Below are positions 51,889-64,000 of a DNA stretch of 64,000 nt, in pieces (position 1 is the first letter of the stretch; each line of letters starts with the position of its first letter). The position numbers and the translations under genes are program-made. Location of the stretch: NCBI GenBank assembly GCA_035544675.1, contig DATKCA010000025.1:35776-99775 (forward strand), given 5' to 3'. A model generated the notes under the pieces. The model saw only the letters and a list, made by a program, of their open reading frames with translations, was not told the DNA's origin and did no database searches. This DNA comes from Thermoanaerobaculia bacterium. Its GTDB lineage: Bacteria; Acidobacteriota; Thermoanaerobaculia; Gp7-AA8.

Positions 51889-51940
51889 GGGTGCGTCCTG
51901 GACAGTCATGGGTGCGTCGTGGAACAGCCGTTTCCTTGCG

Positions 51941-51954
51941 AACATTGCAATGTT
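51941..51954. promoter_or_regulatory. 14-bp perfect palindrome AACATTGCAATGTT in divergent promoter region
   Basis: Lies between the repeat-protein gene (minus) and the sensor GGDEF-EAL gene (plus). Candidate dimeric TF operator. Confidence 0.3.
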
Positions 51955-51979
51955 GTGGTGAGAGAGATGACGCGGCACA

Positions 51980-54574
51980 ATGAGTGTATCCGTCTCGTGC
52001 AAAGACGCCAAGATGGGCATTTTCTCGAGCCTTCGCATCCGCACCAAAACGGTGCTGATCATGACCTTGATCCTGGCGGTCATGTCGCTGGCCGTTTATC
52101 TGTACTTTCCCTCCCGGCTCAAACAGCGCGGAATTGACGACATCACCGAGAGAACGGCGGTGCTGAGCGAAATGGCGGCCTACGCCATCGCTCCGGCGCT
52201 GAATGGGAACGATCGGGTGGCGGTCGCCGAGGCGCTGGTGGGGATGCGCCGCAGCTCGGGCGTCGCCTACCTCGTGGTTCTGGACGCGAAAGGGATGCTG
52301 ATGACTGCGGTCGGCGATCTCTACGCCGAGGCGGTCGATTTCCGCGAGCTTCCGATGAAGCCGATCGCGGCAGTCGCGTTCGCCGACCGCCGGGAACGCG
52401 GCCAGCCGCCTGGGGAAGGGGAGGCCACCCCGCGCGGCGGCTTCTCCCGCGACGGCTCGGTGTATCAGGTTGTCTCACCAGTGCGATATCGCGGGCGGCA
52501 AGTCGGTTCGATCTACGTCGGTACGGCGATGGGCAGCGTGGATGAGGAGACCTCGCGCAGCCGGGCCACGGTCGCGCTCGTCACGACTCTGGCGTTCGGG
52601 CTGGGCGTCGCGGCGACCTATCTGCTGAGCACTCTCATCACGGGGCCGCTCAGCAGGATCGCCGAGACTTCCGAGCGCATCGCCGAGGGCGATCTGGAGC
52701 AGCGCGCGCAGATCGACTCCACCGATGAGGTCGGGCAGCTGGCCCGGTCGTTCAACGTCATGGTCGACCGGCTGGCGGCGGCACAGTTCGAGCTGGAGGG
52801 GCTGAACCGCACCCTCGAGGATAGAGTGGACGAGCGGACCGCCCAGCTCCGCGAGGAGTTCGAGGAACGGCGCCGGGCCGAGAGCGCCCTGCGCGTCTCC
52901 GAGGAGCGCTACCGGCTGTTGTTCGATCGCAATCTCGCCGGCGCGTACATCGCCACGCCCGATTTCCGCATCATCAGCTGCAATCAGGCGTGCGCGCGTC
53001 TGTTCGGCTACGACTCGATCGAGGAGTTCCTCTCCAGTGGCGGCGAGATGGCCTACGGCAGCGACTCCCAGCGCGAGGCGATCGCGCGGCGCCTTCAGGA
53101 AGAAGGCACGGTCATGAACGAGGAGGTCGAGTTGCGCTTGCGGGACGGGCGCACGCTCTGGGCTCTCGAGAACGTCCGCCTCATCCGCGATCCCAAGAGC
53201 GGGGAGGCCACGCTGGAAGGTGTGCTTCTCGACATCTCCGAGCGCAAACGCGCCGAGAGGGAGATGGAATACCGCGCCTATCACGACGTGCTCACAGGCC
53301 TGCCCAACCGCTCCCTCTTTCTGGATCGAGTCAGCGTGGCGATCGCTCGCGCGCAACGCCTTTCCGGACACGTGGCCGTGATGTTCCTGGACCTCGATTA
53401 CCTGAAGACCATCAACGACACGCTGGGGCACGCCGTCGGCGACGAGCTGCTGAAACGCGTGGCCGCCCGCCTGGCGGACACGCTGCGCGGCGAGGATACG
53501 GTGGCCCGGGTCGGCGGCGACGAGTTCCTCGTGCTTCTACCGGAGGTTCGGGATGAGGAAGGCGCGTCGATCGTGGCTCGCAAAATCCACGACTCGCTGC
53601 TCGAGGCGTTCGTCGTCGACGATGACGAAATGCACCTCACCGTGAGCATCGGCATGGCCATCTATCCCGAGGACGGAGCGGATCCGGAGACGCTGGTCCG
53701 CAGCGCGGACGCCGCGATGTATCGGGTCAAGGAATCGGGTGGCAACGACTACAGGCTGTCCAGCCGGATCGGAGACGCCGGAGTGGTCGGCCGCATGACG
53801 CTCGAGCAGGAGATCCGCGACGCCCTCGAGAACGATGAGTTCACCCTCTACTTCCAGCCGCAGGTCGAGCTCGACACCCGTCGGATGTCGGGGGCCGAAG
53901 CGCTCGTCCGTTGGAATCATCCCAGCCGCTCCCTCGTCGCGCCGGCCGGCTTCATCCCGATCGCCGAGGCCACCGGCTTGATCACACTGGTGGGCGAGCG
54001 TGTCCTCTACAAAGCCTGTGAGCAGGTCGTGCGATGGCGCAGTGCCGGACACGAGCCGCCGCTGGTATCGGTGAACGTGTCGGCCCGCCAGTTCTATCAG
54101 CGCGACTTCATCGGCATGGTGAAGCGCATCCTGGACGAGACGCACGTCGAGCCGCAGTGGCTGGAGCTGGAGATCACGGAATCGGTCACCATGCAGAAAG
54201 GCGAGCACGCCCTCCGCATGCTGCGCCGCCTCCGCGACCTCGGCCTCTCCATCGCCATCGACGACTTCGGCACCGGCCAGAGCTCGCTCAGTTACCTGAA
54301 GTCATTCCCGATCGACACGGTGAAGATCGACAAGAGCTTCGTGAACGACATCGGCCGGCGCAACACGAGCGAGTCCATCGTCGCCGCGGTGCTGCTCCTG
54401 GGGCGGCAGCTCAAGATGCGGACCGTGGCGGAGGGTGTCGAAAGCGAAGAACAGTGCGACTTCCTGCGCCGGCACCACTGCCGCGCCATCCAGGGATTCC
54501 TGATCAGCCGGCCGATCGAGGCCAGCGACTTCGAGGAGAGGTTCCTCCGGCCCGCCATGAGCATCGAGGCCTAG
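51980..54574 (+). CDS. membrane sensor HAMP-PAS-GGDEF-EAL protein
   Basis: TM, periplasmic-like region, TM, HAMP, PAS, GGDEF (RVGGDEF) and EAL (ELEITES...DDFGTGQSSL). Start may be the internal ATG at about 52013 (MGIFSSL). Confidence 0.9.
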   Translation: MSVSVSCKDAKMGIFSSLRIRTKTVLIMTLILAVMSLAVYLYFPSRLKQRGIDDITERTAVLSEMAAYAIAPALNGNDRVAVAEALVGMRRSSGVAYLVVLDAKGMLMTAVGDLYAEAVDFRELPMKPIAAVAFADRRERGQPPGEGEATPRGGFSRDGSVYQVVSPVRYRGRQVGSIYVGTAMGSVDEETSRSRATVALVTTLAFGLGVAATYLLSTLITGPLSRIAETSERIAEGDLEQRAQIDSTDEVGQLARSFNVMVDRLAAAQFELEGLNRTLEDRVDERTAQLREEFEERRRAESALRVSEERYRLLFDRNLAGAYIATPDFRIISCNQACARLFGYDSIEEFLSSGGEMAYGSDSQREAIARRLQEEGTVMNEEVELRLRDGRTLWALENVRLIRDPKSGEATLEGVLLDISERKRAEREMEYRAYHDVLTGLPNRSLFLDRVSVAIARAQRLSGHVAVMFLDLDYLKTINDTLGHAVGDELLKRVAARLADTLRGEDTVARVGGDEFLVLLPEVRDEEGASIVARKIHDSLLEAFVVDDDEMHLTVSIGMAIYPEDGADPETLVRSADAAMYRVKESGGNDYRLSSRIGDAGVVGRMTLEQEIRDALENDEFTLYFQPQVELDTRRMSGAEALVRWNHPSRSLVAPAGFIPIAEATGLITLVGERVLYKACEQVVRWRSAGHEPPLVSVNVSARQFYQRDFIGMVKRILDETHVEPQWLELEITESVTMQKGEHALRMLRRLRDLGLSIAIDDFGTGQSSLSYLKSFPIDTVKIDKSFVNDIGRRNTSESIVAAVLLLGRQLKMRTVAEGVESEEQCDFLRRHHCRAIQGFLISRPIEASDFEERFLRPAMSIEA

Positions 54575-54579
54575 GGAAC

Positions 54580-55749
54580 TCATAGCGCCGATCGCCGCGC
54601 CAGTTCCGCCGCCACCAGCGCCGATGCGCGTGGGCTCTGAGTCACGGTCCAGTCCAGCGCGATCGAGGACATGGTGGTGTCGGCGGGCTGATTGAAGAAG
54701 ACCACGGCCTTGATGCCGCGGCCGTAGTGATGGTCGATCATGTAGAACGCCTGCCGGTACCACTCGGTGGCATCGCCCCCGGCGGTCAGCGTTCCGAACT
54801 CGCAGACCATGATCGGCCTGTTCAGCTTCTGCAGCGCCGGGTAGGCCTTCTCCACGATCTGGTGGAATGTCCACCAGCGCGACCATTGCGCGACGTTGCC
54901 GTAGTTCAGGACGCCGATCCCGATCCAGTCGACGAACTCCGCGCCCGGATAGTAGTACTCGAACCACGGCATGGAGATGTGGGGCGACCAGACCCACAGG
55001 ACGTTGTTGGCGTTCATCTTCTGAAAGACGAGGTGCACGTGTCTCCACGCCGCGATGAAGTCCTCGGGCCGGTTGCCGTTCTGCGGGCCCCAGGGGTAGC
55101 GGTACGGATCGTTCATCTCGTGCGCGAAGCGAAGCAGGATGGGCTTCTTGTACTGCGCAGCCGCCCTGGCCCACGGAACGATGTAGAAGTCGTACTCGCC
55201 CTTCGCGATGGCGGCCAGGCTTGCGTACTCGCGCTCGGCGAGACGCGGCAGATTGCGCCGCAGACGCTCGTCGAAGTCGCTCACCCACGGCTCCCACGTG
55301 ATCATCGGGACGGATCCCATACGGCTGATCGTCTCGACCATGCGCACCGGGAACTGCTGCTGCGGCTTGTCTCCCCACGCCGAATAGAGGGAGATGATCG
55401 GAAACCGGTAGCGGATGTCCTTCTCGAATGTCTCCAGGCCGGCAAACGTGTTCGGGAACCCGCCGTCGTAAGCGCCGAAGAGAACCCGGGGCGGATTGGC
55501 GAGGGCGGCCTTCGAGTCGAGAATGGGGCGCAGAGGCTCGAGGTACTCGGCGCGCGAGCCGCGCCGGACCGACTGGAGCGCGTCGCCCTGCGCATCGGAG
55601 AAACGCTGCGCCACGCGCGTCAGGCTCTCCGCGATGGAGCGAAAAAACGCCTGGAACCCGCTGCCGAATCCGATCTGGAACAGGACGCCGACCGCGATGA
55701 GCCATCCCAGCGCGAAGAATGCGATCTGATAACGGCGTCTGGCGCTCAC
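54580..55749 (-). CDS. membrane-anchored glycoside hydrolase, GH26-like
   Basis: LRFAHEMNDPYRYPWG and WVWSPH motifs resemble GH26 catalytic strands. N-terminal signal anchor. 4-nt overlap with the GT2 gene. Confidence 0.55.
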   Translation of the reverse strand: MSARRRYQIAFFALGWLIAVGVLFQIGFGSGFQAFFRSIAESLTRVAQRFSDAQGDALQSVRRGSRAEYLEPLRPILDSKAALANPPRVLFGAYDGGFPNTFAGLETFEKDIRYRFPIISLYSAWGDKPQQQFPVRMVETISRMGSVPMITWEPWVSDFDERLRRNLPRLAEREYASLAAIAKGEYDFYIVPWARAAAQYKKPILLRFAHEMNDPYRYPWGPQNGNRPEDFIAAWRHVHLVFQKMNANNVLWVWSPHISMPWFEYYYPGAEFVDWIGIGVLNYGNVAQWSRWWTFHQIVEKAYPALQKLNRPIMVCEFGTLTAGGDATEWYRQAFYMIDHHYGRGIKAVVFFNQPADTTMSSIALDWTVTQSPRASALVAAELARRSAL

Positions 55750-57302
55750 TCTTCCGATCTCTCCCGATCCACCCAGGCCGCGTAGATCCGCCCTGACATC
55801 AGCATCGTATTGATGATCATAAATGCCGTCATTCCCACGCGCACTTCCGTCGTGATCAGCACCTCAGACTCCGCAAGCACGAAGAGCTGCATGAACAGGG
55901 TCCATAGGAACGTGAGCAACGAGATTACAACGATGCCGATCGGAACGCGCGCCAGTTTCCAGAAACTCGCTCGCCGCCGCCGCTTCGATGTCGGGATGTA
56001 TGGCACGGTGATGCGAACGATAGCCAGTAACAGACCCTTCAGGTACACCGTCCACGACCCGATCTTCAGCAGCGTGCCCCGCCAGTGCCAGCCGGCCTCG
56101 CGGGCCGGGTCGCACGTCCAGCGCTGCAGAAACCGGTAGATCACCGCCCCGAAGAATCCCACCGGCGCTGCATGCTGCAGGTACTCGGCGAGAACGAACG
56201 CCGCCGGCTGCGCGCCAACCCAGAGAAAGAGCATCGGGATGCTGAGGTAGATCAGCGTCGTGAACCCGACCATGTAGTAGCTCCCGATCATGAAGTACGA
56301 GATCTTCTGATGCGCGCTCAGGCGCCGGAACGCACGCGGGTACTCCTGAAACAGCACATCGTGGACGCCGCGGGACCACTTCAGCTGCTGCTTCAGCAGG
56401 GAGTCCAGATCCGACGGCACCAGTCCGCGCGAAACGATCTCGGGCACGTAGATCGACTTCCATCCCGCCGCGTGCAGCCTGATCGACGTGACCAGGTCCT
56501 CAGCCAGTCCGATGCCATGTCCGCCGATCGACTCCAGTGCCGCCCGCCGGAACGTGCAGTTCGCGCCGATCGCCACCGCGGTGCCCGTTCCGTTCATCCC
56601 CTGCATGATCGGGCCGTAGAACGCGAAGGTCTGCTCGGCCGCGGCGCGGGCCACGAACGACTCCGGCGGATTGTAGTAGGCCTGCGAAACCTGGACGAAG
56701 CCGACCTGTGGGTCCTCGAAGTATCCGAGGACCCGATCGAGGAACTCCGGGAAGGGGATGTGATCGGGATCGAGGACGAGGATGAACTCCTCGTTCGTCA
56801 ACTTCAGAGCCGCATTGATCTTGCCCGCCTTCGCCCCCGGAACGCCGAGCAGTTCCAGGTGCACCGCTCCCATGTCACGGGCCAGGGCGCCGAATCGCGG
56901 ATCGCGCGTGTCGTCGAGAAGATAGGTCGTGTGCGGGTAACGCACCTGGCGCAGGGCCTCGAGCGTCCGCACGAACATCTCGTAGGGCTCACCCGGAGCC
57001 GAGGTGGTGAAGATCGCCACTGGCAATCCAGGTGGCGCCGGAACCGGCGCCGGCTGCTCCACGTGGAATCCGTTGTACCAGCCCACCATGAGACGGAACA
57101 CGCCGTACCACGTGGCCAGCGACAGCAGGATGAACAGGGCCGGGTCGTTGACGTGCTCGAGGCGGAACCACCACAACGCAAATGCGACCACGCTCTGCAC
57201 GCCGAGGAAGAGCAGGAAGCCGAGGACCCAGCGCTCCCAGCTCTTCACCCCCGGTGCACGGCGGTGGCGGAAAATCTCAGCGCTGTCTGACCAAGGATGC
57301 AT
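55746..57302 (-). CDS. processive family-2 glycosyltransferase (polysaccharide synthase)
   Basis: D, DxD and QxxRW (QQLKWSRG) motifs with flanking TM helices. Start chosen at MHPWSDSAEIF. The ORF track extends to 57371. Confidence 0.78.
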   Translation of the reverse strand: MHPWSDSAEIFRHRRAPGVKSWERWVLGFLLFLGVQSVVAFALWWFRLEHVNDPALFILLSLATWYGVFRLMVGWYNGFHVEQPAPVPAPPGLPVAIFTTSAPGEPYEMFVRTLEALRQVRYPHTTYLLDDTRDPRFGALARDMGAVHLELLGVPGAKAGKINAALKLTNEEFILVLDPDHIPFPEFLDRVLGYFEDPQVGFVQVSQAYYNPPESFVARAAAEQTFAFYGPIMQGMNGTGTAVAIGANCTFRRAALESIGGHGIGLAEDLVTSIRLHAAGWKSIYVPEIVSRGLVPSDLDSLLKQQLKWSRGVHDVLFQEYPRAFRRLSAHQKISYFMIGSYYMVGFTTLIYLSIPMLFLWVGAQPAAFVLAEYLQHAAPVGFFGAVIYRFLQRWTCDPAREAGWHWRGTLLKIGSWTVYLKGLLLAIVRITVPYIPTSKRRRRASFWKLARVPIGIVVISLLTFLWTLFMQLFVLAESEVLITTEVRVGMTAFMIINTMLMSGRIYAAWVDRERSEE

Positions 57303-58776
57303 GAATGGTCCTGGCCTGGTAATCGATCGTCCGGCTGTACTCGTAACCGGCCCTGAGTGAGAACCCGGCAATGGGCCGTGTGGTGAGGTCGAGCCGGGCC
57401 CGGAAGGGCTCGTACACCCGCTCGAAGGCGAACGGCACGATCGTCGCGGGCAGAGGCTCGGCGCCGGCGCCCGGCGCGAACGCGATGCCCTTGTCGCGCG
57501 CCTGGCCGCCGTCCAGCTGCGCGCGAAGCGCTCCTCCTCCCGGCCACTTCAACTCTCCGCCGATGATGCCGCGACCCTCTGTCAGATCCACCGGCGTCCA
57601 ATACGGGATGTAAAGGCCGCGATAGGTGTACCGGAATTGACCGGAGGGCAGGCGCGACGACGACACGGAAATCTCGAAGAAGCGCGCGTCATCGGTATCC
57701 CGGTGCGCGGCGGAGAGTCCGGCCCAGATGCCGAACCGGTCATGCCGGACGATCGGGACGATTCCGTACGCGTACGCCAGCGTGCCGCGGTTTCTGTCCT
57801 CGTACTGGAGGCGCTCGAGATGCACGGCGGCGCTGCGGCCGCTCGCGTCCTCTCGCTTCCACTCCAGCGTCGTGCTGCGCACCATGGCGTACTTCTCCGC
57901 GGGATTGGTGAGGATCTCGCGCTGGCCCGCCGCTGCCGAGATCGCCGAGCGCCCTGCTCGCAACGTGAGCACGATGCTGCCGATCGGCTCCGTCTGGCCG
58001 GCCGGAAGCCGGATGGCCCCTGCCGAGGCGGAGAGCGTGAGCCGCTGCCAGGGAAATGCGCGCTCGACTCCGGCCGTGATTCGCGGAGCCGTCGACGTCC
58101 GGCCGTCGAACGGCCGGTGCAGCCGCCACGTGCCTGCAGAGAGGTCCCATCGCGTCAGTGGATCGGCGAACCCGGTCGCGGCGACTCCGGCCAGGGCGGC
58201 GTGAAACGGCTGATCGTCCCTGGTCGCCGTTGCCTCGATCCGTTGGGTGGGACGCATCGCAGCCTCGATCTCGGTCACGCTTTTGCGCGCCAGCTCGCGG
58301 GCCGGATCCTTCGCCAGCACGCGCCGGAACTCGCGCAGCGCCGTGGTGTAGTCACCCTGCCAGTACGCAGCGGTGGCGCCTCCCTCGAGCGCTTCGACCC
58401 CTTCGGCCGCCTGGAACTGCCGGCGCGCCTCGGCGTACCGGCCGCTCCACAGCAGCGCCCGGGCCAGGCCGAGGCGGGCGCGCGGGGGTGGTAGCGGGCC
58501 ATCCAGCAGCGCGCGATACCGCCGCACGGATTCGTCGAGCTCGTTGTTCCACGCCAGCGTCTCCGCAAGTATGATCTCGTCTTCCGCGGTGCCTTCGGGA
58601 GAGGCGACGACCACCCTCAGCAATGCGATGGCCGGCCCGAATTCGCGGCGGTCCCGGTGCTCGAGTGCGGACTTTCTCGCGTCTGCGGTTGTAAGCTGTG
58701 CTTCGGAGGTACGCGAGGGGCTGAGCAGGATCAACACGATTACGGCGCCCAGCACGCCCGTCCGCGAGGATTGCAC
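57277..58776 (-). CDS. TPR-repeat protein with beta-rich C-terminal domain (putative exopolysaccharide export component)
   Basis: Signal peptide, about 4 TPR-like repeats, then roughly 300 aa of alternating beta-strand pattern. Does not end in an aromatic residue, so barrel assignment is tentative. Confidence 0.5.
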   Translation of the reverse strand: MQSSRTGVLGAVIVLILLSPSRTSEAQLTTADARKSALEHRDRREFGPAIALLRVVVASPEGTAEDEIILAETLAWNNELDESVRRYRALLDGPLPPPRARLGLARALLWSGRYAEARRQFQAAEGVEALEGGATAAYWQGDYTTALREFRRVLAKDPARELARKSVTEIEAAMRPTQRIEATATRDDQPFHAALAGVAATGFADPLTRWDLSAGTWRLHRPFDGRTSTAPRITAGVERAFPWQRLTLSASAGAIRLPAGQTEPIGSIVLTLRAGRSAISAAAGQREILTNPAEKYAMVRSTTLEWKREDASGRSAAVHLERLQYEDRNRGTLAYAYGIVPIVRHDRFGIWAGLSAAHRDTDDARFFEISVSSSRLPSGQFRYTYRGLYIPYWTPVDLTEGRGIIGGELKWPGGGALRAQLDGGQARDKGIAFAPGAGAEPLPATIVPFAFERVYEPFRARLDLTTRPIAGFSLRAGYEYSRTIDYQARTIHASLVRQR

Positions 58777-58873: not shown

Positions 58874-60214
58874 ATGTCAGATCAAACGGCGAATGCCGTT
58901 TTTGATAGCCGTCTCATTGTCCGGGCAGCGCTCCGCACCGACGTGGGAAAAGTGCGCTCGGAAAACCAGGATTTCGGCACGCTGACCAGCGAGCAGGAAG
59001 AGCGCAACAGTCAGCCCGGTGGAAGGCTGCTCGTCGTCGCGGACGGCATGGGTGGGCATCGCGGCGGAGCCACGGCCTCGCGCCTGGCCGGAGAGACGGT
59101 CAAGGCGAAGTACCTGGGAAGCAGCACGAGGGACATCCCTTCCGCGCTCCGCGATGCGCTCTCGGTCGCGAACCGGCGCATCTTTTCCGAGGCCCAGGCC
59201 AATCCTGATCTGCGTGGGATGGGAACGACGACCTCCGCATTGGCCGTGCGCCAGAATCAAGGCTGGTTCGCGCACGTCGGCGACTCGCGGATCTACATGA
59301 TCCGCGGCGAGGAGATCCGGCAGCTCACCGACGATCACTCGCTCGTCGCAACGATGATGCGCGAAGGGCTCCTCACCGCCAAGGAGGCCGAGAACCATCC
59401 GCGACGCAATGTCCTGCAGCGTTCCATCGGAGTCGGCGAAGAGGTCGAGATCGACATCAAGGGCCCGATCGACCTGCACGAGGGCGACATGTTCATCCTC
59501 TGCAGCGACGGCCTTCATGGCCTGGTGAAAGAGGATGAGCTGAAGGAAGTGGTGCAGATGGGCGTCGACGAGGCGGCGGATGAGTTCGTCAAGCGCGCGC
59601 TCGAGCGCGGCGCGCCGGACAACGTCACCGTCATCGTCGCGCGTGTCGAGCGCGCCACTGCTGACGACGATACCATCGCCGCAGCCACGCTGGACGGGAG
59701 GACGCTCGATCAGGCCGCGTTCGACGAGACGATTTCCGACGACACGGTGCGTGAAGTCCCGACGCCGACGTTGCCGGGCCAGATCCCGCTGGCCGCAACG
59801 GCCGAGGTGGCACTCCCTTCTGCCGGGGCGCTGCCGATCACGGCCGAAGTGCCCCTGCCGTCCGCGCCGGCGAAGGACGAGAGCAACGTCTCGACGGAAA
59901 AGATCGTCGCGTTGAAGGAAAACACGGACAAGATCCCGGCCCTGGCCGTGACAGCCGAAGTGCCTCTGAAGCCGGAAACACCTTCGCGCGCGGGAGCGAA
60001 GGCCGACGTCGACGCGACGATTCGCGTTGCTCCGGTCACGATGCCGGCGACGCCGCCGAAGCGACCGGTGGGGAAGCCGGTGCGCAAGTCCGGACGCAAT
60101 CTCGTGAAGTGGACGCTGATCTTTGTTGTCGTGCTCGCCGCGGCGGGCGCCTGGCTGTTCTGGAGCCAGCAGCAGGGGTTCGCCGATTCGTCATCGACCT
60201 CTCAGCGGCGGTAA
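58874..60214 (+). CDS. PP2C-family Ser/Thr phosphatase with repeat-containing linker and C-terminal TM anchor
   Basis: VADGMGGH, HVGDSRIYM, DGLHG and APDNVTVIV PP2C motifs. The tail has AEVPL repeats and one TM. Confidence 0.9.
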   Translation: MSDQTANAVFDSRLIVRAALRTDVGKVRSENQDFGTLTSEQEERNSQPGGRLLVVADGMGGHRGGATASRLAGETVKAKYLGSSTRDIPSALRDALSVANRRIFSEAQANPDLRGMGTTTSALAVRQNQGWFAHVGDSRIYMIRGEEIRQLTDDHSLVATMMREGLLTAKEAENHPRRNVLQRSIGVGEEVEIDIKGPIDLHEGDMFILCSDGLHGLVKEDELKEVVQMGVDEAADEFVKRALERGAPDNVTVIVARVERATADDDTIAAATLDGRTLDQAAFDETISDDTVREVPTPTLPGQIPLAATAEVALPSAGALPITAEVPLPSAPAKDESNVSTEKIVALKENTDKIPALAVTAEVPLKPETPSRAGAKADVDATIRVAPVTMPATPPKRPVGKPVRKSGRNLVKWTLIFVVVLAAAGAWLFWSQQQGFADSSSTSQRR

Positions 60215-60218
60215 CCCT

Positions 60219-61859
60219 ATGTTGACCCGTTCCCTCGGTGCAATGGGTCTGATCGCCGTGGCCGTCGGCGTGAGTGGCTGCCGCAGGGATGAAGTGCGGC
60301 TCGACGAGGTTCAGAAGATGGCTTATAGCGTCAAGCCTGCCGTTGTGCGCGTGAACGCGTTCGCGACGGCCGAGTTCCGCTATTCGGGCCGGGCCATCTT
60401 CGAAGTCGCCGCGCAACTCACGCGCGACGGCCGTGATGTCGATCCGCGCAGCATCCCCGATCAGGAGGTCGGCGTGGAGACCGGCGCGGGCGGATCGGGC
60501 AGCGGCTTCGTGGTCAATCCGAACGGGTACATCCTCACGAACCTCCACGTGGTGGCGCCTACGCGCGACGCCGCCTCGCTCGAGCGTGACCTGCGCAGGA
60601 ACGGGGCGATCTCCGCGCTGGTCCGGCATTTTCCGATCGACCAGCTGCGCGCGCTTTATCGCGACGACGTCCTGGACCGTTACATCGACGTCGTGGCCAG
60701 GGCGGGACGCCTCGCCAAGACCAAAACGGTCAACGAGGTCGAGCTGTCGAACGGCGAGAAGCTGCCTTTCACGATCCAGCGGTTCTCCCCCGCGCTCACC
60801 GAGCGCGGGAACGACCTGGCCCTCCTGAAGATCAACCGGAAGAACCTTCCGGTGCTGCGCCTCGGCGACTCCGAGGCGGTTGGCGTCGGGGAATCGATCT
60901 GGTCCGTCGGCTATCCGGCCGTGGCCAGCAGCACCGACGACATCATCGGCGGCTGGCTCTCCCGGGAGAGCGACCTCGAAGCGACGTTCAACCCGGGGAC
61001 GATCACTGCGATCAAGAGCAATGTCGCGAATGCGCCGGTATTTCAATCGAACGTCGCGATCTATCGAGGCAACTCCGGCGGACCGGCCGTGAACCGCAAC
61101 GGCGAGGTGATCGGTGTCTCCACATGGGGCCACACGAGCGCCGAGCAGATCAAATTCCTCGTTCCGGTCAATGCGGCGCGGTCGCTCGTCACGTCCGCCG
61201 GTGTGCAGCCGAACGTGGAGAGCGACTTCGATCGCTACTACCGCGCGGCGCTCGACGCAGCCGCGGAAGGGCGGTGGGCGGGGGCGCGAAAGAACCTGGC
61301 CACGGCATCGCAGCTCTTCCCGAACTCGCCGGACCTCATTCGATTCCGCCGCGACACCGACCGCGCCATCACCCGTGTGCCGGGCTGGCAGCAGTATCCG
61401 CTCGCGGTGGCGGTTCTGGGCGGTGGAGCCGTGGCGATCGCGTTTGTCGGGGTTGTGGCCATCGTGGCCGGGAACCGCCGGCACAAAGCCCCTCGAGAGG
61501 TGCTGAACAGCCAGGCGGTGGAGTCTGTGGTGGCGCCGGCGGGAACCTCGCCCAACAGGATGCTCGGGCGTTTCACCATCCTCAACGGCCTTCGCGCTGG
61601 CGAGAAGCTGGGACTGGGCGGGTCAGGCATCCGGATCGGGCGTGAGTCGGCCATCTGCGAGATCGTGCTGGAGAATCCAAAGGTGTCACGGCTTCATGCC
61701 GAAGTGGTATTGCTCGACGGCAAGGTGATGCTGATCGACAGGAATTCCTCAAACGGTACATACGTAAACGATCAAAAGATCGATCGGCGATATCTCAGAG
61801 ACGGCGACATCATTCACTTCGGTGGGCGCAATGCCGTGGCGGTGGCGTTTCATGTTTAG
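60219..61859 (+). CDS. trypsin-like serine protease (S1C) - TM - FHA domain fusion lipoprotein
   Basis: Lipobox VGVSGC. Catalytic triad: His in TNLHVV, Asp in NDLALLK, Ser in GNSGGP. Then a TM and a C-terminal FHA (RIGRESAICEIVLENPKVSRLHAEV...SSNGTYVND). Confidence 0.8.
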   Translation: MLTRSLGAMGLIAVAVGVSGCRRDEVRLDEVQKMAYSVKPAVVRVNAFATAEFRYSGRAIFEVAAQLTRDGRDVDPRSIPDQEVGVETGAGGSGSGFVVNPNGYILTNLHVVAPTRDAASLERDLRRNGAISALVRHFPIDQLRALYRDDVLDRYIDVVARAGRLAKTKTVNEVELSNGEKLPFTIQRFSPALTERGNDLALLKINRKNLPVLRLGDSEAVGVGESIWSVGYPAVASSTDDIIGGWLSRESDLEATFNPGTITAIKSNVANAPVFQSNVAIYRGNSGGPAVNRNGEVIGVSTWGHTSAEQIKFLVPVNAARSLVTSAGVQPNVESDFDRYYRAALDAAAEGRWAGARKNLATASQLFPNSPDLIRFRRDTDRAITRVPGWQQYPLAVAVLGGGAVAIAFVGVVAIVAGNRRHKAPREVLNSQAVESVVAPAGTSPNRMLGRFTILNGLRAGEKLGLGGSGIRIGRESAICEIVLENPKVSRLHAEVVLLDGKVMLIDRNSSNGTYVNDQKIDRRYLRDGDIIHFGGRNAVAVAFHV

Positions 61860-61885
61860 GATGGGTATGGGCAGGAGAGGACGTC

Positions 61886-62596
61886 GTGGCTGATAAACGG
61901 TGCGCCAACGGGCACTTCATCGACGAGTCATGGGATCTGTGTCCCTATTGCCCGGTCGAGAACGTCGAGCCGGACATCCCCATCGTGCGCCCGACCAGGG
62001 CCGTACCGCAGCCCGAGCCGGCGCGCGCCGTCGCGGTGCCGCCAGCCCCGCCCATCCGGCGCGAAGTTCCGCAGCCGCTCCCGGCGGTGGTGCCGGCGGC
62101 CATCCCGCCACCCACCGCCCCCGTGAGCGCGCAGCCTGCGGCGACGGCGGCCGCTCCACCGGTCGCTCCGGTGGCCGACCGTCCCTCCACCCCTCCCATG
62201 GAGAGGACCATCGCCGTTCCGAAGATGGAGACCGGAGCGGCTGCCAAGCGATACGTTGTCGGCTGGCTGGTGGGGCTGAACGGGGCGTTGCGGGGTGAGT
62301 CGTACGCGGTCCGGATCGGGCGCAACGTTCTTGGCCGGGACAAGAAGTCGGACATCGTCGTCAACGACGATCAGGCCTCGGCGCATCACGCCGATCTGGT
62401 GTTCCGGCCGGAGGAGCGCCGCTTCATCCTGATGGACCACAACTCCACCAACGGCACTTACGTGAACGAGAGCGAGATCGAGCCGCGGCGCGATCTGGCC
62501 GGCAAGGACGTCATTCGCATCGGGTCGCACAGGTTCCTCTTCATGCCGCTGTGTCATGACGGCTTCTACTGGGATGATGAGGGCGCGTTGAAATGA
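61886..62596 (+). CDS. zinc-ribbon - Pro-rich linker - FHA domain protein
   Basis: N-terminal C..H....CPYCP ribbon, about 90-aa Pro/Ala linker, then FHA (RIGRNVLGRDKKSDIVVNDDQASAHHADL...STNGTYVNE). Confidence 0.75.
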   Translation: MADKRCANGHFIDESWDLCPYCPVENVEPDIPIVRPTRAVPQPEPARAVAVPPAPPIRREVPQPLPAVVPAAIPPPTAPVSAQPAATAAAPPVAPVADRPSTPPMERTIAVPKMETGAAAKRYVVGWLVGLNGALRGESYAVRIGRNVLGRDKKSDIVVNDDQASAHHADLVFRPEERRFILMDHNSTNGTYVNESEIEPRRDLAGKDVIRIGSHRFLFMPLCHDGFYWDDEGALK

Positions 62597-63843
62597 TCGG
62601 TAACGTCATCGGCAACTACCGGATCGAGCGCGAGCTCGGCGAAGGAGGGATGAGCCACGTGTACGTGGGTCGCACTCTGGCCGCGAACGAGACCCTGCCC
62701 ACGGACTTCCAGGTCGTGCTGAAAATCATGTCCGAAGAGCTGGCCGGCGAGCTGACGGCGCGCAAGCGCTTCGTGAAAGAGGCGCAGATCCTGTCCAAGC
62801 TGCGTCATCGCTACATCACGCGTTTCTACGAGTTCATCAACAACGACAGCGGAGCGACGCTGGTCATGGAGTTCGTCGACGGCATGCCTGTCGACATGCT
62901 GATCGCCGAGAAGGGCGCGCTGCCGCTTCGCGACGCCATCACCATCACACAATGCATGCTGGAGGCGCTCGTCTACGCTCACGGCAAGGGGATCGTGCAC
63001 CGCGACATCAAGCCGGCCAACCTGATCCGCGAGAAGGGCGGGACGGTGAAGGTCACCGACTTCGGCATCGCCAAGATCAAGGAAGGCGCCGGCGTGACCG
63101 GCCAGACCGTGCTCACCAAGTCCGGATTCCTCCTGGGCACACCGCACTACATGTCGCCGGAGCAGATCCGCGAGCCGAAAGACGCCGGCGCGAAGTGCGA
63201 CATCTACTCCGCGGGAGTCGTTCTGTACGAGATGCTCACGGGGACGCTGCCGTTCAACAGCCGGTCGCTTCCGAAGCTCATTGACGCGATCTATCGCGGT
63301 GACAAACCGGTGCCTTCGTCGCTGCGCCCCGAGATCGACAAGGCACTCGAGGCGATCGTGCTCAAGTCGATGCACCCCCGTCACGATCAGCGCTACGAGA
63401 CCGCGCGCGAGTTCTACGAGGAGCTGGAGGAGTACACGGCCCGCCAGCCCATCGCCGGCGGCCTCGGTCCGACCGCACCCGCCTCCTCCCCGGTGTTCGG
63501 CTCGTCGCCGAACCTCGCGGCGCCCCAGGCGTCTCAGGCGGCCCCGCAGCAGTGGGCCCTGGTCAACGTCAAGCCCGAAGGAAACGAGAAATACCCGATT
63601 CAGGGCGAGAACATCATGGTCGGGCGCGATCGCACCTGCGCCATCGTCCTCACCCATCCGGCCGTTTCGCGGCGGCACGCGCGCATTACCCTCACCGGCG
63701 CCTCGCCCGTCCTGGAAGACCTGAAGTCGGCCAACGGTACGTACGTCAACAACACCCGGGTCGACCGTGTGAAGCTCAAGGCCGGCGACGTCGTCCGTTT
63801 CGGCGCTGACCCGTCATGCAGTTACGTTTTGAGGGATCACTGA
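62593..63843 (+). CDS. Hanks-type Ser/Thr protein kinase with C-terminal FHA domain
   Basis: GEGGMSHVY, VLK, HRDIKPANL, DFG and SPE kinase subdomains. C-terminal FHA (MVGRDRTCAIVLTHPAVSRRHARI...SANGTYVNN). Confidence 0.94.
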   Translation: MIGNVIGNYRIERELGEGGMSHVYVGRTLAANETLPTDFQVVLKIMSEELAGELTARKRFVKEAQILSKLRHRYITRFYEFINNDSGATLVMEFVDGMPVDMLIAEKGALPLRDAITITQCMLEALVYAHGKGIVHRDIKPANLIREKGGTVKVTDFGIAKIKEGAGVTGQTVLTKSGFLLGTPHYMSPEQIREPKDAGAKCDIYSAGVVLYEMLTGTLPFNSRSLPKLIDAIYRGDKPVPSSLRPEIDKALEAIVLKSMHPRHDQRYETAREFYEELEEYTARQPIAGGLGPTAPASSPVFGSSPNLAAPQASQAAPQQWALVNVKPEGNEKYPIQGENIMVGRDRTCAIVLTHPAVSRRHARITLTGASPVLEDLKSANGTYVNNTRVDRVKLKAGDVVRFGADPSCSYVLRDH

Positions 63844-63865
63844 TGAATGCCCCCCAGGAGTCGTC

Positions 63866-64000
63866 ATGAGCCAGATCAATTGCCTTCGCTGTAAAGAGCC
63901 GATCGACGAGCAGCTGGAGCAGTGCCCGGCGTGCGGCGAGAAGGTGACCAGTTTCCAGAGGACGTATGCGACGCGTCTAATCGATGGCAAGTACCAGATC
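63866..64000 (+). CDS. zinc-ribbon protein (3'-truncated at window edge)
   Basis: MSQINCLRCKEPIDEQLEQCPACGEK. RBS CAGGAG upstream. Confidence 0.45.
   Translation, partial: MSQINCLRCKEPIDEQLEQCPACGEKVTSFQRTYATRLIDGKYQI

What the first reader, a model, noticed from the sequence alone, without database searches (positions are those of the whole stretch)
58874..64000. Ser/Thr phospho-signalling island with three FHA fusions (protease-FHA, zinc-ribbon-FHA, kinase-FHA) and a PP2C phosphatase
The genes are tandem and tightly spaced: PP2C-TM, lipoprotein S1C protease-TM-FHA, ZnRibbon-PRich-FHA, Hanks kinase-FHA, then another zinc-ribbon gene. An FHA-GAF-adenylate cyclase lies 9 kb upstream (48361-50034). 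An FHA domain on a trypsin-like protease implies phosphothreonine-directed proteolysis. This resembles but does not match actinobacterial FhaA/FhaB-PstP-PknAB or T6SS Fha-PpkA-PppA modules.
Basis: partly seen in the sequence, partly recalled or inferred. Interest (0 to 1): 0.55.

Follow-up and report, generated by a model that had tools for sequence, protein, structure and literature searches.

The report
Kinase-phosphatase operon with FHA-tagged periplasmic protease
A conserved operon of an uncultured Acidobacteriota lineage combines two protein kinases, a phosphatase and phosphothreonine-reader (FHA) proteins, one of them an HtrA-like protease that sits outside the inner membrane with its FHA domain inside the cell, so phosphorylation probably positions or switches the protease across the membrane rather than choosing its substrates.

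Summary
HMMs confirm PP2C-TM (58874-60214), lipoprotein HtrA-like protease-TM-FHA (60219-61859), zinc-ribbon-linker-FHA (61886-62596) and Hanks kinase-FHA (62593-63843). Gene spacing is 4, 26, -4 and 22 nt. Two corrections. The cut last gene (63866-64000) is the N-terminus of a second, zinc-ribbon receptor kinase. The FHA-GAF-cyclase (48361-50034) is on the minus strand.

PP2C, protease-FHA, ZnR-FHA, kinase-FHA, receptor kinase and a periplasmic TPR protein lie in order in 51/51 sufficiently long Thermoanaerobaculia loci. The cyclase is divergently adjacent in 43/62; here an 8.8 kb c-di-GMP/exopolysaccharide block separates them. Distant protease-TM-FHA homologues (27-38% identity; relatives named Geobacteraceae, Acidobacteriaceae, Bryobacteraceae) again sit with kinase, PP2C and ZnR-FHA genes, in other gene orders.

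The protease lies between a lipobox and a TM helix, opposite its FHA, so "phosphothreonine-directed proteolysis" fails topologically. It has an HtrA fold and triad but no PDZ. The unalignable PP2C tail keeps repeated [DE][DE]T motifs (124 versus 17.6 expected). The receptor-kinase linker keeps T-V-M-E-R repeats (162 versus 0.9).

Best reading (inferred): a membrane phosphothreonine/FHA assembly that tethers or activates a periplasmic protease. I found no published study of it. New variant of a known kind; moderate interest.

The parts
48361..50034 (-). FHA-GAF-class III nucleotidyl cyclase (557 aa). Probable cAMP output arm of the module.
   Evidence: Pfam FHA 1.1e-18, GAF 1.8e-15, Guanylate_cyc 1.4e-30. 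Divergently adjacent to the PP2C gene in 43/62 related loci. Metal-binding Asp residues and the Lys/Asp/Asn/Arg substrate and transition-state residues were read from the sequence by eye (inference).
50068..58776 (.). Five-gene block lying between the cyclase and the operon. It is not part of the conserved module. Genes: CarboxypepD_reg-repeat protein (-), HAMP-PAS-GGDEF-EAL (+), 467-aa protein with no Pfam hit (-), GT2 cellulose-synthase-like glycosyltransferase (-), TPR protein (-).
   Evidence: Pfam. Present in only 7/62 related loci plus this window.
58874..60214 (+). PP2C Ser/Thr phosphatase with a long disordered tail and a C-terminal TM anchor (446 aa). PP2C domain aa 22-256, linker aa 263-408, TM aa 409-433.
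   Evidence: Pfam PP2C_2. NCBIfam Stp1/IreP equivalog 246 bits against a cut-off of 230. Hydropathy.
59666..59962 (+). Cluster of threonine motifs in the PP2C tail: DDT-I (aa 265), DET-I (284), DDT-V (289), TAEV x3 (309, 323, 360), TEKI (341), TDKI (351). Candidate phospho-acceptor and FHA docking sites.
   Evidence: Coordinates. In 60 orthologous linkers, [DE][DE]T occurs 124 times against 17.6 +/- 3.9 in shuffles, while the Ser equivalent occurs 7 times against 10.3. The linker is only 11% identical across orthologues.
60219..61859 (+). Lipoprotein HtrA-like serine protease, helical stalk, TM helix and cytoplasmic FHA domain (546 aa). Signal peptide and lipobox aa 1-21; protease aa 42-326 (H110, D199, S286); helices aa 336-392; TM aa 394-418; disordered linker aa 419-447; FHA aa 448-546 (R475, S490, H493, N512).
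   Evidence: Pfam. Alignment invariants. AF2 model with pLDDT 89.3. Foldseek matches to HtrA1/DegS/DegP protease domains with target-normalised TM 0.73-0.78 for protease-domain-only entries. No PDZ domain.
61886..62596 (+). Zinc-ribbon, Pro/Ala-rich linker and FHA protein (236 aa). CxxxH...CxxC at aa 6-22; invariant R107-T108 motif (MERTIAV, nt 62198-62218); FHA domain from about aa 126 to 236 (Pfam match aa 148-213).
   Evidence: Pfam FHA 3e-17. Zinc ribbon present in 74/74 orthologues and [ED][RK]T[IVL] in 57/74. R107 and T108 invariant in 57 sequences. A homologous ZnR-FHA protein occurs in distant operons L087, L091 and L095.
62593..63843 (+). Soluble Hanks-type Ser/Thr kinase with a C-terminal FHA domain (416 aa). 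Kinase aa 9-267 with canonical HRDIKPAN and DFG; FHA aa 342-404.
   Evidence: Pfam Pkinase 4.4e-47 and FHA 1.9e-21. No TM segment. HRDIKPAN in 72/73 orthologues.
63866..64000 (+). First 45 codons of the second kinase (cut by the window end). In orthologues it is zinc ribbon, Hanks kinase (HRD[IV]SPEN), Thr-repeat linker, TM helix and a ~120-aa periplasmic domain, followed by a periplasmic TPR protein gene.
   Evidence: Zinc-ribbon hits below the Pfam cut-off. 74% mean identity to 69 Kin2 orthologues. Ortholog anatomy.

Best explanation
This is the 5' two-thirds of a vertically conserved six-gene operon. The operon encodes a PP2C-TM phosphatase, an HtrA-like protease-TM-FHA protein, a ZnR-FHA protein, a kinase-FHA protein, a ZnR receptor kinase and a periplasmic TPR protein. 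Together with the FHA-GAF adenylate cyclase, it builds a membrane-proximal phosphothreonine/FHA signalling assembly.

Proposed mechanism:
1. The receptor kinase senses a periplasmic or envelope cue through its ~120-aa ectodomain, possibly together with the TPR protein.
2. Threonines in repeated short motifs become phosphorylated. These motifs are T-V-M-E-R in the receptor kinase's cytoplasmic linker, [DE][DE]T in the phosphatase tail, and E-R-T-V in ZnR-FHA.
3. The four FHA domains dock on these multivalent phospho-linkers.
4. Docking recruits the soluble kinase-FHA, which amplifies the signal. This may matter because the receptor kinase has Ser in place of the catalytic-loop Lys.
5. Docking also modulates cAMP synthesis through the FHA-GAF-cyclase.
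6. Through the TM helix, docking tethers or oligomerises the periplasmic HtrA-like protease. In this protein a stalk-TM-FHA unit takes the place of the usual regulatory PDZ domain. Cytoplasmic phosphorylation would then control where or whether periplasmic proteolysis happens (inside-out control).
7. The PP2C resets the system.

Shown: the domain identities, the topology prediction, the intact catalytic and pThr-binding residues, the operon conservation, the recurrence of the module in distant lineages, and the conserved Thr motifs. Inferred: that these threonines are phosphorylated, which FHA binds which motif, that docking activates the protease, and what the protease cuts.
For: Topology: the lipobox Cys is invariant, there is a single TM helix, and basic residues follow it. 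The AF2 model has pLDDT 89.3 and shows protease, three helices, TM helix, disordered linker and FHA in that order.

Protease: HtrA fold with H110/D199/S286 invariant and no PDZ domain.

FHA domains: the GR/SxxH/NG residues are intact in the sequences of all four and alignment-invariant in the protease-FHA orthologues. In the three operon proteins the FHA domain is among the best-conserved regions (0.78-0.87 identity, against 0.67 for the protease domain); the cyclase FHA is lower at 0.71.

Synteny: the six genes are in order in 51/51 loci and the cyclase is adjacent in 43/62.

Distant systems: homologues at 27-38% identity with the same architecture are embedded with kinase, PP2C and (ZnR-)FHA genes in at least four gene orders. 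Of 29 such loci, 14 have a kinase, PP2C or FHA gene on the same strand within 5 kb.

Motifs: [DE][DE]T occurs 124 times against 17.6 +/- 3.9 expected in a linker that is only 11% identical, with no enrichment for Ser. T[VILM][MLIVQ]E[RKSQT] occurs 162 times against 0.9 expected, and 56/62 receptor-kinase linkers carry at least 2 copies. R107-T108 is invariant in ZnR-FHA.

Precedent: Rv1747/PknF in M. tuberculosis shows FHA domains reading pThr in an unstructured linker of a membrane protein (PMC3138270 and PMC8339232, abstracts seen).
Against: There is no experimental evidence for phosphorylation, binding or proteolysis.

The shuffle controls ignore relatedness among orthologues, so the z-scores overstate independence. 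The 11% linker identity mitigates this.

The acidic Thr motifs could be non-phosphorylated interaction motifs.

The juxtamembrane motif of the protease is TVETVVAP in most orthologues but AVESVVAP (no Thr) in this window. It is therefore not a universal pThr ligand. AF2 gave it low confidence, so no docking was predicted.

Among the 11 distant protease-FHA loci with at least 2.5 kb of flank on both sides, only 4 have kinase, PP2C or FHA neighbours, and a soil subclade has none at all. The protease can evidently work with partners encoded elsewhere.

PP2C proteins of the distant operons often lack the tail and the TM helix, so the multi-Thr tail is a clade-specific elaboration.

The protease substrate is unknown.
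Confidence: 0.5

Rival explanations
1. This is an envelope-growth or cell-wall control module, functionally equivalent to the actinobacterial fhaA-fhaB-pstP-rodA-pbpA-pknA-pknB cluster. The kinases and FHA proteins would regulate peptidoglycan synthesis (the class A PBP encoded downstream). The protease would process cell-wall enzymes, as mycobacterial HtrA and MarP are reported to do (from my own knowledge).
For: The locus has a membrane-anchored PP2C, two kinases and small FHA proteins, as in the actinobacterial operon. A class A PBP gene (Transgly + Transpeptidase) follows on the same strand in 39/45 loci, and an S41 C-terminal peptidase follows in L001-L003, with a weaker hit (412 bits) in L031. 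The best NCBIfam hit for the small FHA protein is FhaB/FipA.
Against: No PASTA domain and no SEDS/bPBP pair were found. The FhaB/FipA and PknB_PASTA scores are far below their cut-offs: 63 against 125 and 262 against 450. The PBP1A gene lies 0.5-1.2 kb beyond the operon. Its cytoplasmic tail is about 12 aa and carries no Thr motif. PBP1A is absent from the distant operons.
Confidence: 0.2
2. The first reader's model of phosphothreonine-directed proteolysis: the FHA domain captures phosphorylated proteins and delivers them to the fused protease.
For: The FHA and protease are fused in one polypeptide, with an intact triad and intact pThr-binding residues.
Against: A conserved signal peptide or lipobox and a single TM helix place the two domains on opposite sides of the inner membrane. 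This holds in the close family and in the distant homologues.
Confidence: 0.04
3. The signal flows outside-in through the protease. The periplasmic HtrA-like domain acts as a sensor of unfolded or mislocalised envelope proteins. Its state is transmitted through the TM helix to change FHA availability, so the protease protein is an input to the kinase network rather than an output.
For: HtrA-family members such as DegS act as stress sensors (established knowledge). The helical stalk runs straight into the TM helix in the AF2 model. The FHA domain is more conserved than the protease domain.
Against: A 26-residue disordered linker separates the TM helix from the FHA domain, which makes conformational coupling unlikely. 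The operon already has a dedicated receptor kinase with an ectodomain.
Confidence: 0.15
4. This is an accessory system: either an anti-phage defence island or a T6SS-type threonine phosphorylation pathway.
For: Kinase and protease domains hit PADLOC models (PD-T4-6, mad6, RT-Protease). FHA, kinase and PP2C trios regulate T6SS in Pseudomonas (established knowledge).
Against: The PADLOC hits are generic domain matches and no system-specific partner is present. TagH scores 20-42 bits across the four FHA proteins against a cut-off of 120. No T6SS genes are present within +/-10 kb in L001 or between 40 and 64 kb of the window. The operon occupies a fixed position among housekeeping genes in about 80 species, and GC content is flat at 0.63-0.68.
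Confidence: 0.03

Closest known systems
Actinobacterial fhaA-fhaB-pstP-rodA-pbpA-pknA-pknB operon (M. tuberculosis Rv0014c-Rv0020c)
   Same: Both have a PP2C phosphatase with a membrane anchor, two Hanks kinases of which one is a receptor type, small FHA-domain adaptor proteins, operon organisation, and a peptidoglycan synthase gene nearby.
   Different: This locus has no PASTA sensor and no RodA/PbpA pair. One kinase carries its own FHA domain. The small FHA protein has a zinc ribbon instead of a TM helix. There is an additional HtrA-like protease-TM-FHA gene and a linked FHA-GAF-cyclase. Scores against the curated FhaB/FipA and PknB models are below their cut-offs.
HtrA/DegP/DegS family (MEROPS S1C) periplasmic serine proteases
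   Same: Same chymotrypsin fold. Sequence hits to HtrA/DegP reach E 2e-16. Foldseek target-normalised TM is 0.73-0.78 for protease-domain-only entries (HtrA1, HtrA3, DegS delta-PDZ) and 0.40-0.56 for PDZ-containing chains. The protein has the GNSGGP serine motif, an invariant His-Asp-Ser triad, a periplasmic location and a membrane anchor as in DegS.
   Different: There is no PDZ domain. The regulatory C-terminus is replaced by three helices, a TM helix and a cytoplasmic FHA domain. A ~55-residue helical insert lies in the N-terminal barrel (aa 109-162). The protein has both an N-terminal lipid anchor and a C-terminal TM helix. It scores 92 bits against a cut-off of 416 for TIGR02037.
Rv1747/PknF of M. 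tuberculosis (ABC exporter with two cytoplasmic FHA domains)
   Same: Both are membrane proteins whose cytoplasmic FHA domains read pThr sites in an unstructured linker, with a kinase in the same operon (PMC3138270, PMC8339232). The protease FHA domain hits the Rv1747 FHA domain in the PDB. Both offer multivalent pThr/FHA pairing.
   Different: The effector here is a periplasmic protease, not a transporter. The pThr motifs and the FHA domains are spread over several proteins rather than lying within one.
T6SS threonine phosphorylation pathway (PpkA-PppA-Fha1/TagH)
   Same: Both combine a receptor Hanks kinase, a PP2C and an FHA protein that assembles on a pThr site at the membrane.
   Different: No T6SS genes were found, no vWA domain is present on the kinase, and the TagH model scores far below its cut-off.
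FraH of Anabaena (zinc ribbon, Pro-rich linker, FHA); FHA-kinase fusions of cyanobacteria and Chloroflexus; FHA-FHA-trypsin of Bacteroides thetaiotaomicron
   Same: These show the same kinds of domain fusion. Kinase+FHA fusions are catalogued in PMC1262709. A trypsin+FHA fusion is catalogued in PMC2605481. The FraH architecture is recalled from memory.
   Different: The domain order differs: FHA is N-terminal in the catalogued kinase and trypsin fusions and C-terminal here. Homology to FraH was not tested. None of those proteins has been tied to a protease-TM-FHA partner.

Membership tests
FHA domain (PF00498), phosphothreonine reader | HMM match above the gathering score, with conserved Gly-Arg, Ser-x-x-His and Asn-Gly pThr-binding residues | tested here: met
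   All four proteins score 63-77 bits against a cut-off of 20.7. GR/SxxH/NG(T) motifs are present in all four sequences. R475/S490/H493/N512 are invariant in orthologues of the protease-FHA.
HtrA/DegP/DegS (S1C) proteases | Chymotrypsin-fold protease domain with a His-Asp-Ser triad | tested here: met
   H110, D199 and S286 are invariant. PDB sequence hits reach E 2e-16. Foldseek target-normalised TM is 0.73-0.78 to protease-domain-only entries for HtrA1, HtrA3 and DegS.
HtrA/DegP/DegS (S1C) proteases | One or two C-terminal PDZ domains | tested here: not met
   There is no PDZ hit in Pfam. The AF2 model shows only three helices, a TM helix and an FHA domain after the protease.
HtrA/DegP/DegS (S1C) proteases | Curated family HMM cut-off (TIGR02037 Do family, DegS, HhoA/HtrA equivalogs) | tested here: not met
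   The protein scores 91.6 bits against 416 (Do family), 47.7 against 423 (DegS) and 88 against 450 (HhoA/HtrA).
HtrA/DegP/DegS (S1C) proteases | Trimeric or higher-order oligomer as the active unit | not testable with these tools
   No multimer prediction was available.
Stp1/IreP/PstP-type PP2C phosphatase | Curated equivalog HMM cut-off | tested here: met
   NF033484 scores 246.1 bits against a cut-off of 230.
Hanks-type Ser/Thr kinase | Pkinase HMM match plus Gly-loop, VAIK Lys, HRDxKxxN, DFG and APE-like motifs | tested here: met
   This applies to kinase-FHA. Pkinase scores 161 bits. The motifs GEGGMS, VVLK, HRDIKPAN, DFG and SPE are present in the sequence and are conserved in 72/73 orthologues.
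Hanks-type Ser/Thr kinase | Catalytic-loop Lys (HRDxK) in the second, receptor kinase | tested here: not met
   Orthologues read HRD[IV]SPEN in 66/67. The other motifs are present. Whether the kinase is active is unknown. In the window itself only the first 45 aa are visible.
Actinobacterial FhaA/FhaB-PstP-PknA/PknB division-wall cluster | PASTA-domain receptor kinase | tested here: not met
   No PASTA domain was found in either kinase. PknB_PASTA_kin scores 262-274 bits against a cut-off of 450.
Actinobacterial FhaA/FhaB-PstP-PknA/PknB division-wall cluster | rodA and pbpA (SEDS + class B PBP) inside the operon | tested here: not met
   Neither gene is among the called genes of L001-L003. Only a class A PBP lies downstream.
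Actinobacterial FhaA/FhaB-PstP-PknA/PknB division-wall cluster | FhaB/FipA equivalog | tested here: not met
   NF049868 scores 63 bits against a cut-off of 125.
T6SS threonine phosphorylation pathway | TagH/Fha1 equivalog and adjacent T6SS core genes | tested here: not met
   TIGR03354 scores 20-42 bits across the four FHA proteins against a cut-off of 120. No T6SS families appear among the neighbours.
Class III adenylate/guanylate cyclase | Guanylate_cyc HMM match above the cut-off | tested here: met
   106.7 bits against a cut-off of 21.9. Nucleotide specificity was not tested; the Lys/Asp pair read by eye suggests ATP.
FraH-like ZnR-Pro-FHA proteins | Sequence homology to Anabaena FraH | not tested
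   No FraH sequence was available. The homologue search returned only generically named proteins. The resemblance is architectural and recalled from memory.

The most novel reading that the evidence does not exclude
The protease-TM-FHA protein would be a new type of inside-out transmembrane effector: an HtrA-class protease whose PDZ sensor has been exchanged for a cytoplasmic phosphothreonine reader. A Hanks kinase and PP2C pair inside the cell would then directly gate proteolysis in the periplasm. The gating would work by clustering protease protomers on multivalent pThr linkers; three T-V-M-E-R repeats is the commonest count, and HtrA proteases are trimers. This four-part module (protease-FHA, ZnR-FHA, kinase, PP2C) would be an uncharacterised signalling system shared by Acidobacteriota and by lineages whose named relatives include Geobacteraceae.
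Probability: 0.3. Interest if true: 0.75.

Novelty: new variant of a known kind. Interest (0 to 1): 0.55.

Why it matters
Hanks kinase, PP2C and FHA modules are well known, but their outputs in Gram-negative environmental bacteria are mostly unknown. Here one output is explicit and unusual: an extracytoplasmic HtrA-like protease wired to cytoplasmic phosphothreonine signalling. It is conserved with its partners in every long-enough locus of a whole class, and it recurs with the same partners in distant lineages. If the inferred mechanism holds, it would be a clear case of phosphorylation-controlled periplasmic proteolysis.

The finding also supplies defined, testable short motifs (DET-Q/V-x-L/D, A/P-T-V-M-E-R, E-R-T-V) and four FHA domains for binding studies. 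Finally, it shows that database names such as 'serine protease Do' or 'trypsin-like peptidase' hide a distinct family. In each of two searches that scored 8,000 candidates, about 900 proteins passed the E-value threshold, and all 120 listed from each carry Trypsin_2 plus FHA. There are 157 cluster representatives at 50% identity with E below 1e-30.

Tried and rejected
1. Exact look-up of the window's own contig through P0001 and P0398, to read the genes beyond 64000. Neither protein is on record. Orthologous loci were used instead.
2. AF2 model of ZnR-FHA, to see whether the invariant ERT motif docks on its own FHA domain as in GarA/OdhI. The model was poor (pLDDT 57, motif region below 50) and is uninformative. 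In the good protease-FHA model the juxtamembrane motif is also disordered.
3. AFDB Foldseek search, to obtain organism names. The library was unavailable.
4. Search for Thr motifs in the cytoplasmic tail of PBP1A, to link the operon to wall synthesis. None were found.
5. Rfam and terminator scans of the operon and of the gap before PBP1A. Nothing was found.
6. PADLOC scan for a defence-system identity. Only generic domain hits were returned.
7. Literature searches for a described trypsin/HtrA-TM-FHA protein. None was found. The only related record is a catalogued FHA-FHA-trypsin protein in B. thetaiotaomicron.
8. Search for FraH's domain description in the paper library. It was not retrievable.
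9. Homologue search with ZnR-FHA. It returned only close orthologues with generic names.
10. The idea that the protease juxtamembrane motif (TVETVVAP) is a universal pThr ligand. This was rejected for the present genome, which has AVESVVAP.

Full report
**1. What is in the sequence**

Five plus-strand ORFs fill 58874-64000.

- 58874-60214 (446 aa) has a PP2C domain (Pfam PP2C_2, 1.8e-15). It passes the curated NCBIfam Stp1/IreP equivalog cut-off (246 against 230 bits).
- 60219-61859 (546 aa) has Trypsin_2 (2.5e-26) at aa 94-300 and FHA (3.8e-19) at aa 471-535. I take ATG 60219 as the start; the mechanical ORF opens at TTG 60123.
- 61886-62596 (236 aa) has FHA (3e-17).
- 62593-63843 (416 aa) has Pkinase (4.4e-47) and FHA (1.9e-21).
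- 63866-64000 gives sub-threshold zinc-ribbon hits.
- The FHA-GAF-Guanylate_cyc gene exists at 48361-50034 but on the minus strand.

The genes are separated by 4, 26, -4 and 22 nt. Terminator-like sites are not in excess (5 against 3.1 +/- 1.9), and no Rfam family matches. A scan of all window ORFs with domain HMMs built here finds FHA, kinase and PP2C domains only in these genes.

**2. Topology**

Hydropathy finds a single TM segment at the PP2C C-terminus (aa 409-433). It also finds a single internal one in the protease protein (aa 392-420), followed by NRRHK.

The protease N-terminus, MLTRSLGAMGLIAVAVGVSGC, is a lipoprotein signal. The Cys is invariant in 12 orthologues, and L001 reads LLLLAC.

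An AlphaFold2 model built on 60 sequences has mean pLDDT 89.3. It shows:
- a signal helix at aa 2-19;
- a protease domain at aa 42-326, with a helical insert at aa 109-162;
- three helices at aa 336-386 that run into a TM helix at aa 394-418;
- a disordered stretch at aa 419-444;
- an FHA sandwich at aa 448-545.

The protease domain is thus periplasmic and the FHA domain cytoplasmic.

**3. What kind of protease**

By sequence, the nearest solved structures are HtrA/DegP proteins (E 2e-16).

By fold, the best matches are protease domains of HtrA1, HtrA3, DegS, DegP, DegQ, MucD, AlgW and M. tuberculosis HtrA. Target-normalised TM is 0.73-0.78 for protease-domain-only entries and 0.40-0.56 for PDZ-containing chains. 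Identity is 18-24%.

H110, D199 and S286 (GNSGGP) are invariant. There is no PDZ domain, and every curated HtrA-family model scores far below its cut-off. The protein works like an HtrA protease domain but is not a member of the PDZ-bearing family. The position of the regulatory PDZ is taken by a stalk, a TM helix and an FHA domain.

**4. Conservation in the close family**

The protein is 100% identical to an NCBI entry from a Thermoanaerobaculia MAG. 880 of the 8,000 scored candidates passed E <= 1e-5, and all 120 listed carry Trypsin_2 plus FHA.

A scan of one genome per species found 102 loci. The 80 kept are all Thermoanaerobaculia or Acidobacteriota MAGs.

I searched the ORFs of these loci with the window proteins and with the downstream proteins of L001.

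- The order PP2C, protease-FHA, ZnR-FHA, kinase-FHA, second kinase, TPR protein is complete in 51 of 51 loci with enough flank.
- A class A PBP follows in 39/45.
- The FHA-GAF-cyclase is divergently adjacent to the PP2C gene in 43/62.
- In 7/62, and in this window, an ~8.8 kb block lies between them. It encodes a CarboxypepD_reg protein, HAMP-PAS-GGDEF-EAL, a protein with no Pfam hit, a GT2 glycosyltransferase and a TPR protein.
- In 12/62 neither arrangement is present.

The window's truncated last ORF is the start of the second kinase. It shows 74% mean identity to 69 orthologues, all of which continue into LGVGGMG.

In orthologues this kinase has a zinc ribbon, a kinase domain, a ~150-aa linker, a TM helix and a ~120-aa ectodomain with no Pfam match. 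Its gene overlaps the gene of a TPR protein that has a signal peptide.

**5. Conservation in distant lineages**

An exhaustive search of 1.84 billion cluster representatives gives 157 with E below 1e-30. Many are full-length matches at 27-38% identity and 520-600 aa. They have a signal peptide, a GNSGGP protease, a helical stalk, a TM helix and an FHA domain.

Named relatives include Geobacteraceae, Acidobacteriaceae and Bryobacteraceae MAGs.

Their gene contexts differ in order but not in content:
- protease-FHA, kinase, unknown, FHA, PP2C (L084);
- FHA, FHA, PP2C, kinase, protease-FHA (L086);
- kinase(DZR), PP2C, ZnR-FHA, protease-FHA (L087);
- protease-FHA, ZnR-FHA, PP2C, kinase (L091, L095; the 5' part of the same order is seen in L098, L100 and L101, whose contigs end at the PP2C gene).

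The small FHA proteins in L087, L091 and L095 share the window's zinc-ribbon signature, C-x-[NK]-G-H-x5-W-x2-C-P-x-C.

Of 29 protease-FHA loci outside the close family, 14 have a kinase, PP2C or FHA gene on the same strand within 5 kb. Many contigs are short. A soil subclade with long flanks has none. The module recurs, but the association is not obligatory.

**6. Threonine motifs**

The PP2C tail between the catalytic domain and the TM helix is 60-240 aa long and only 11% identical to the window's across orthologues. It nevertheless carries [DE][DE]T 124 times in 60 linkers, against 17.6 +/- 3.9 in composition-preserving shuffles. 58/60 linkers have at least one and 45/60 at least two. [DE][DE]S is not enriched (7 against 10.3). 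The consensus is roughly [LF]-D-[ED]-T-[QLV]-[PRK]-[DLEI].

The window's tail has DDT-I, DET-I and DDT-V, plus three TAEV motifs and the T[DE]KI motifs TEKI and TDKI.

The receptor-kinase linker carries T[VILM][MLIVQ]E[RKSQT] 162 times in 62 linkers, against 0.9 expected. The commonest count is three copies (31/62). It also carries GGT[MF]P repeats.

ZnR-FHA has an invariant R107-T108 in an otherwise variable linker. [ED][RK]T[IVL] is present in 57/74.

In the three operon proteins the FHA domain is among the best-conserved regions: 0.87, 0.84 and 0.78 identity to the window. The kinase domain of kinase-FHA is comparable at 0.81. The protease domain is at 0.67 and the cyclase FHA at 0.71.

Caveat: the shuffles ignore shared ancestry. 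The strongest argument is therefore that the motifs persist, and repeat, in linkers that no longer align.

It is established knowledge that FHA domains bind pThr with selectivity at +3, and that Hanks kinases often favour acidic residues upstream and hydrophobic residues downstream. That these particular threonines are phosphorylated is inference.

**7. The two kinases differ**

Kinase-FHA is soluble and canonical: HRDIKPAN in 72/73 orthologues. The receptor kinase reads HRD[IV]SPEN in 66/67, so it lacks the catalytic-loop Lys.

This suggests a division of labour. The receptor would act as sensor and phospho-scaffold. The FHA-bearing kinase would be recruited to primed sites as the main catalyst. 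This is inference.

**8. Mechanism proposed**

See the best explanation. In brief:
- a periplasmic cue acts on the receptor kinase;
- Thr motifs on the receptor-kinase linker, the PP2C tail and ZnR-FHA become phosphorylated;
- the four FHA domains assemble on these multivalent linkers at the membrane;
- the outputs are kinase amplification, cAMP synthesis (FHA-GAF-cyclase) and tethering or oligomerisation of the periplasmic HtrA-like protease;
- PP2C resets the system.

The nearest mechanistic precedent is Rv1747/PknF, where FHA domains read pThr in an unstructured linker of a membrane protein (PMC3138270, PMC8339232).

Evidence against the proposal:
- the protease juxtamembrane motif lacks Thr in this genome (AVESVVAP, against TVETVVAP in most orthologues);
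- no docking is predicted by AF2;
- orphan protease-FHA genes exist;
- the substrate is unknown.

**9. Comparison with known systems**

Actinobacterial FhaA/FhaB-PstP-PknA/B cluster. Shared: a membrane PP2C, two kinases and FHA adaptors. Missing: PASTA, RodA/PbpA and equivalog-level similarity.

T6SS PpkA/PppA/Fha1. No T6SS genes are present, and TagH is far below its cut-off.

Defence systems. Only generic domain hits were found, and the operon sits in a fixed core-genome position.

Catalogued fusions. Kinase+FHA fusions have been catalogued since 2005 (PMC1262709). One FHA-FHA-trypsin protein was catalogued in 2008 (PMC2605481). I found no paper describing a trypsin/HtrA-TM-FHA protein or this module. 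This is absence from the searchable library, not proof of absence.

**10. Verdict**

The feature is real, ordinary in its parts and unusual in its assembly. It is a new variant of the Hanks-kinase/PP2C/FHA kind, with a conserved, uncharacterised transmembrane protease-FHA effector. Interest is moderate (0.55). It would rise if phosphorylation-gated periplasmic proteolysis were shown.

Noticed in passing
window 50068-58776: A five-gene c-di-GMP/exopolysaccharide-type block lies between the FHA-GAF-cyclase and the PP2C operon. It comprises a CarboxypepD_reg-repeat protein, HAMP-PAS-GGDEF-EAL, a 467-aa protein with no Pfam hit, a GT2 cellulose-synthase-like glycosyltransferase and a TPR protein. 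It is present in only 7 of 62 related loci, so it was either inserted or lost differentially at a fixed site.
   Followed up: partly
window 54302-55705 (-) against 51980-54574 (+): The 467-aa ORF with no Pfam hit converges on the GGDEF-EAL gene and overlaps its 3' end by about 270 nt. Its relatives in other loci match only in fragments (35-160 bits). The true extent of the gene is uncertain.
   Followed up: no
L001 13529-15394 and 66 orthologues (the window holds only codons 1-45, at 63866-64000): The receptor kinase has HRD[IV]SPEN instead of HRDxKxxN in 66/67 orthologues, so the catalytic-loop Lys is replaced by Ser. It may have weak or altered activity, or act mainly as a scaffold.
   Followed up: partly
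L001 14600-14900 (receptor-kinase linker) and orthologues: Besides the T-V-M-E-R repeats, the linker carries tandem GGT[MF]P repeats (54 observed against 2.9 expected in 62 linkers). It also carries a conserved MVTLSGAQTLADLPK segment. The function of both is unknown.
   Followed up: no
L001 16557-17405 (-), in the gap between the TPR gene and PBP1A: A 282-aa ORF encodes an extremely Lys/Ser/Gly-rich, repeat-built protein (KSSAASRGG-type repeats). It overlaps a low-complexity ORF on the opposite strand. It could be a histone-H1/AlgP-like basic protein or an artefact of repetitive GC-rich DNA. No Rfam match was found in this gap.
   Followed up: partly
L001 17524-19677 and 45 orthologues: The class A PBP downstream of the operon has a strongly conserved ~45-aa C-terminal extension (HFDEP[PA]AITF[ED][KQ]FRRWANEVDRNRQ...) after the transpeptidase domain. 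Its function is unknown.
   Followed up: no
L094, L096, L105, L113, L122, L126, L127: A soil or rhizosphere subclade of protease-TM-FHA proteins (about 575-670 aa as ORFs) has no kinase, PP2C or FHA gene within the available flanks. This differs from the other distant homologues.
   Followed up: partly
window 60543-60704 (protease aa 109-162): A ~55-residue helical insert lies within the N-terminal barrel of the protease domain. It is conserved in the family and predicted with high confidence. It could act as a lid or as an oligomerisation element.
   Followed up: no
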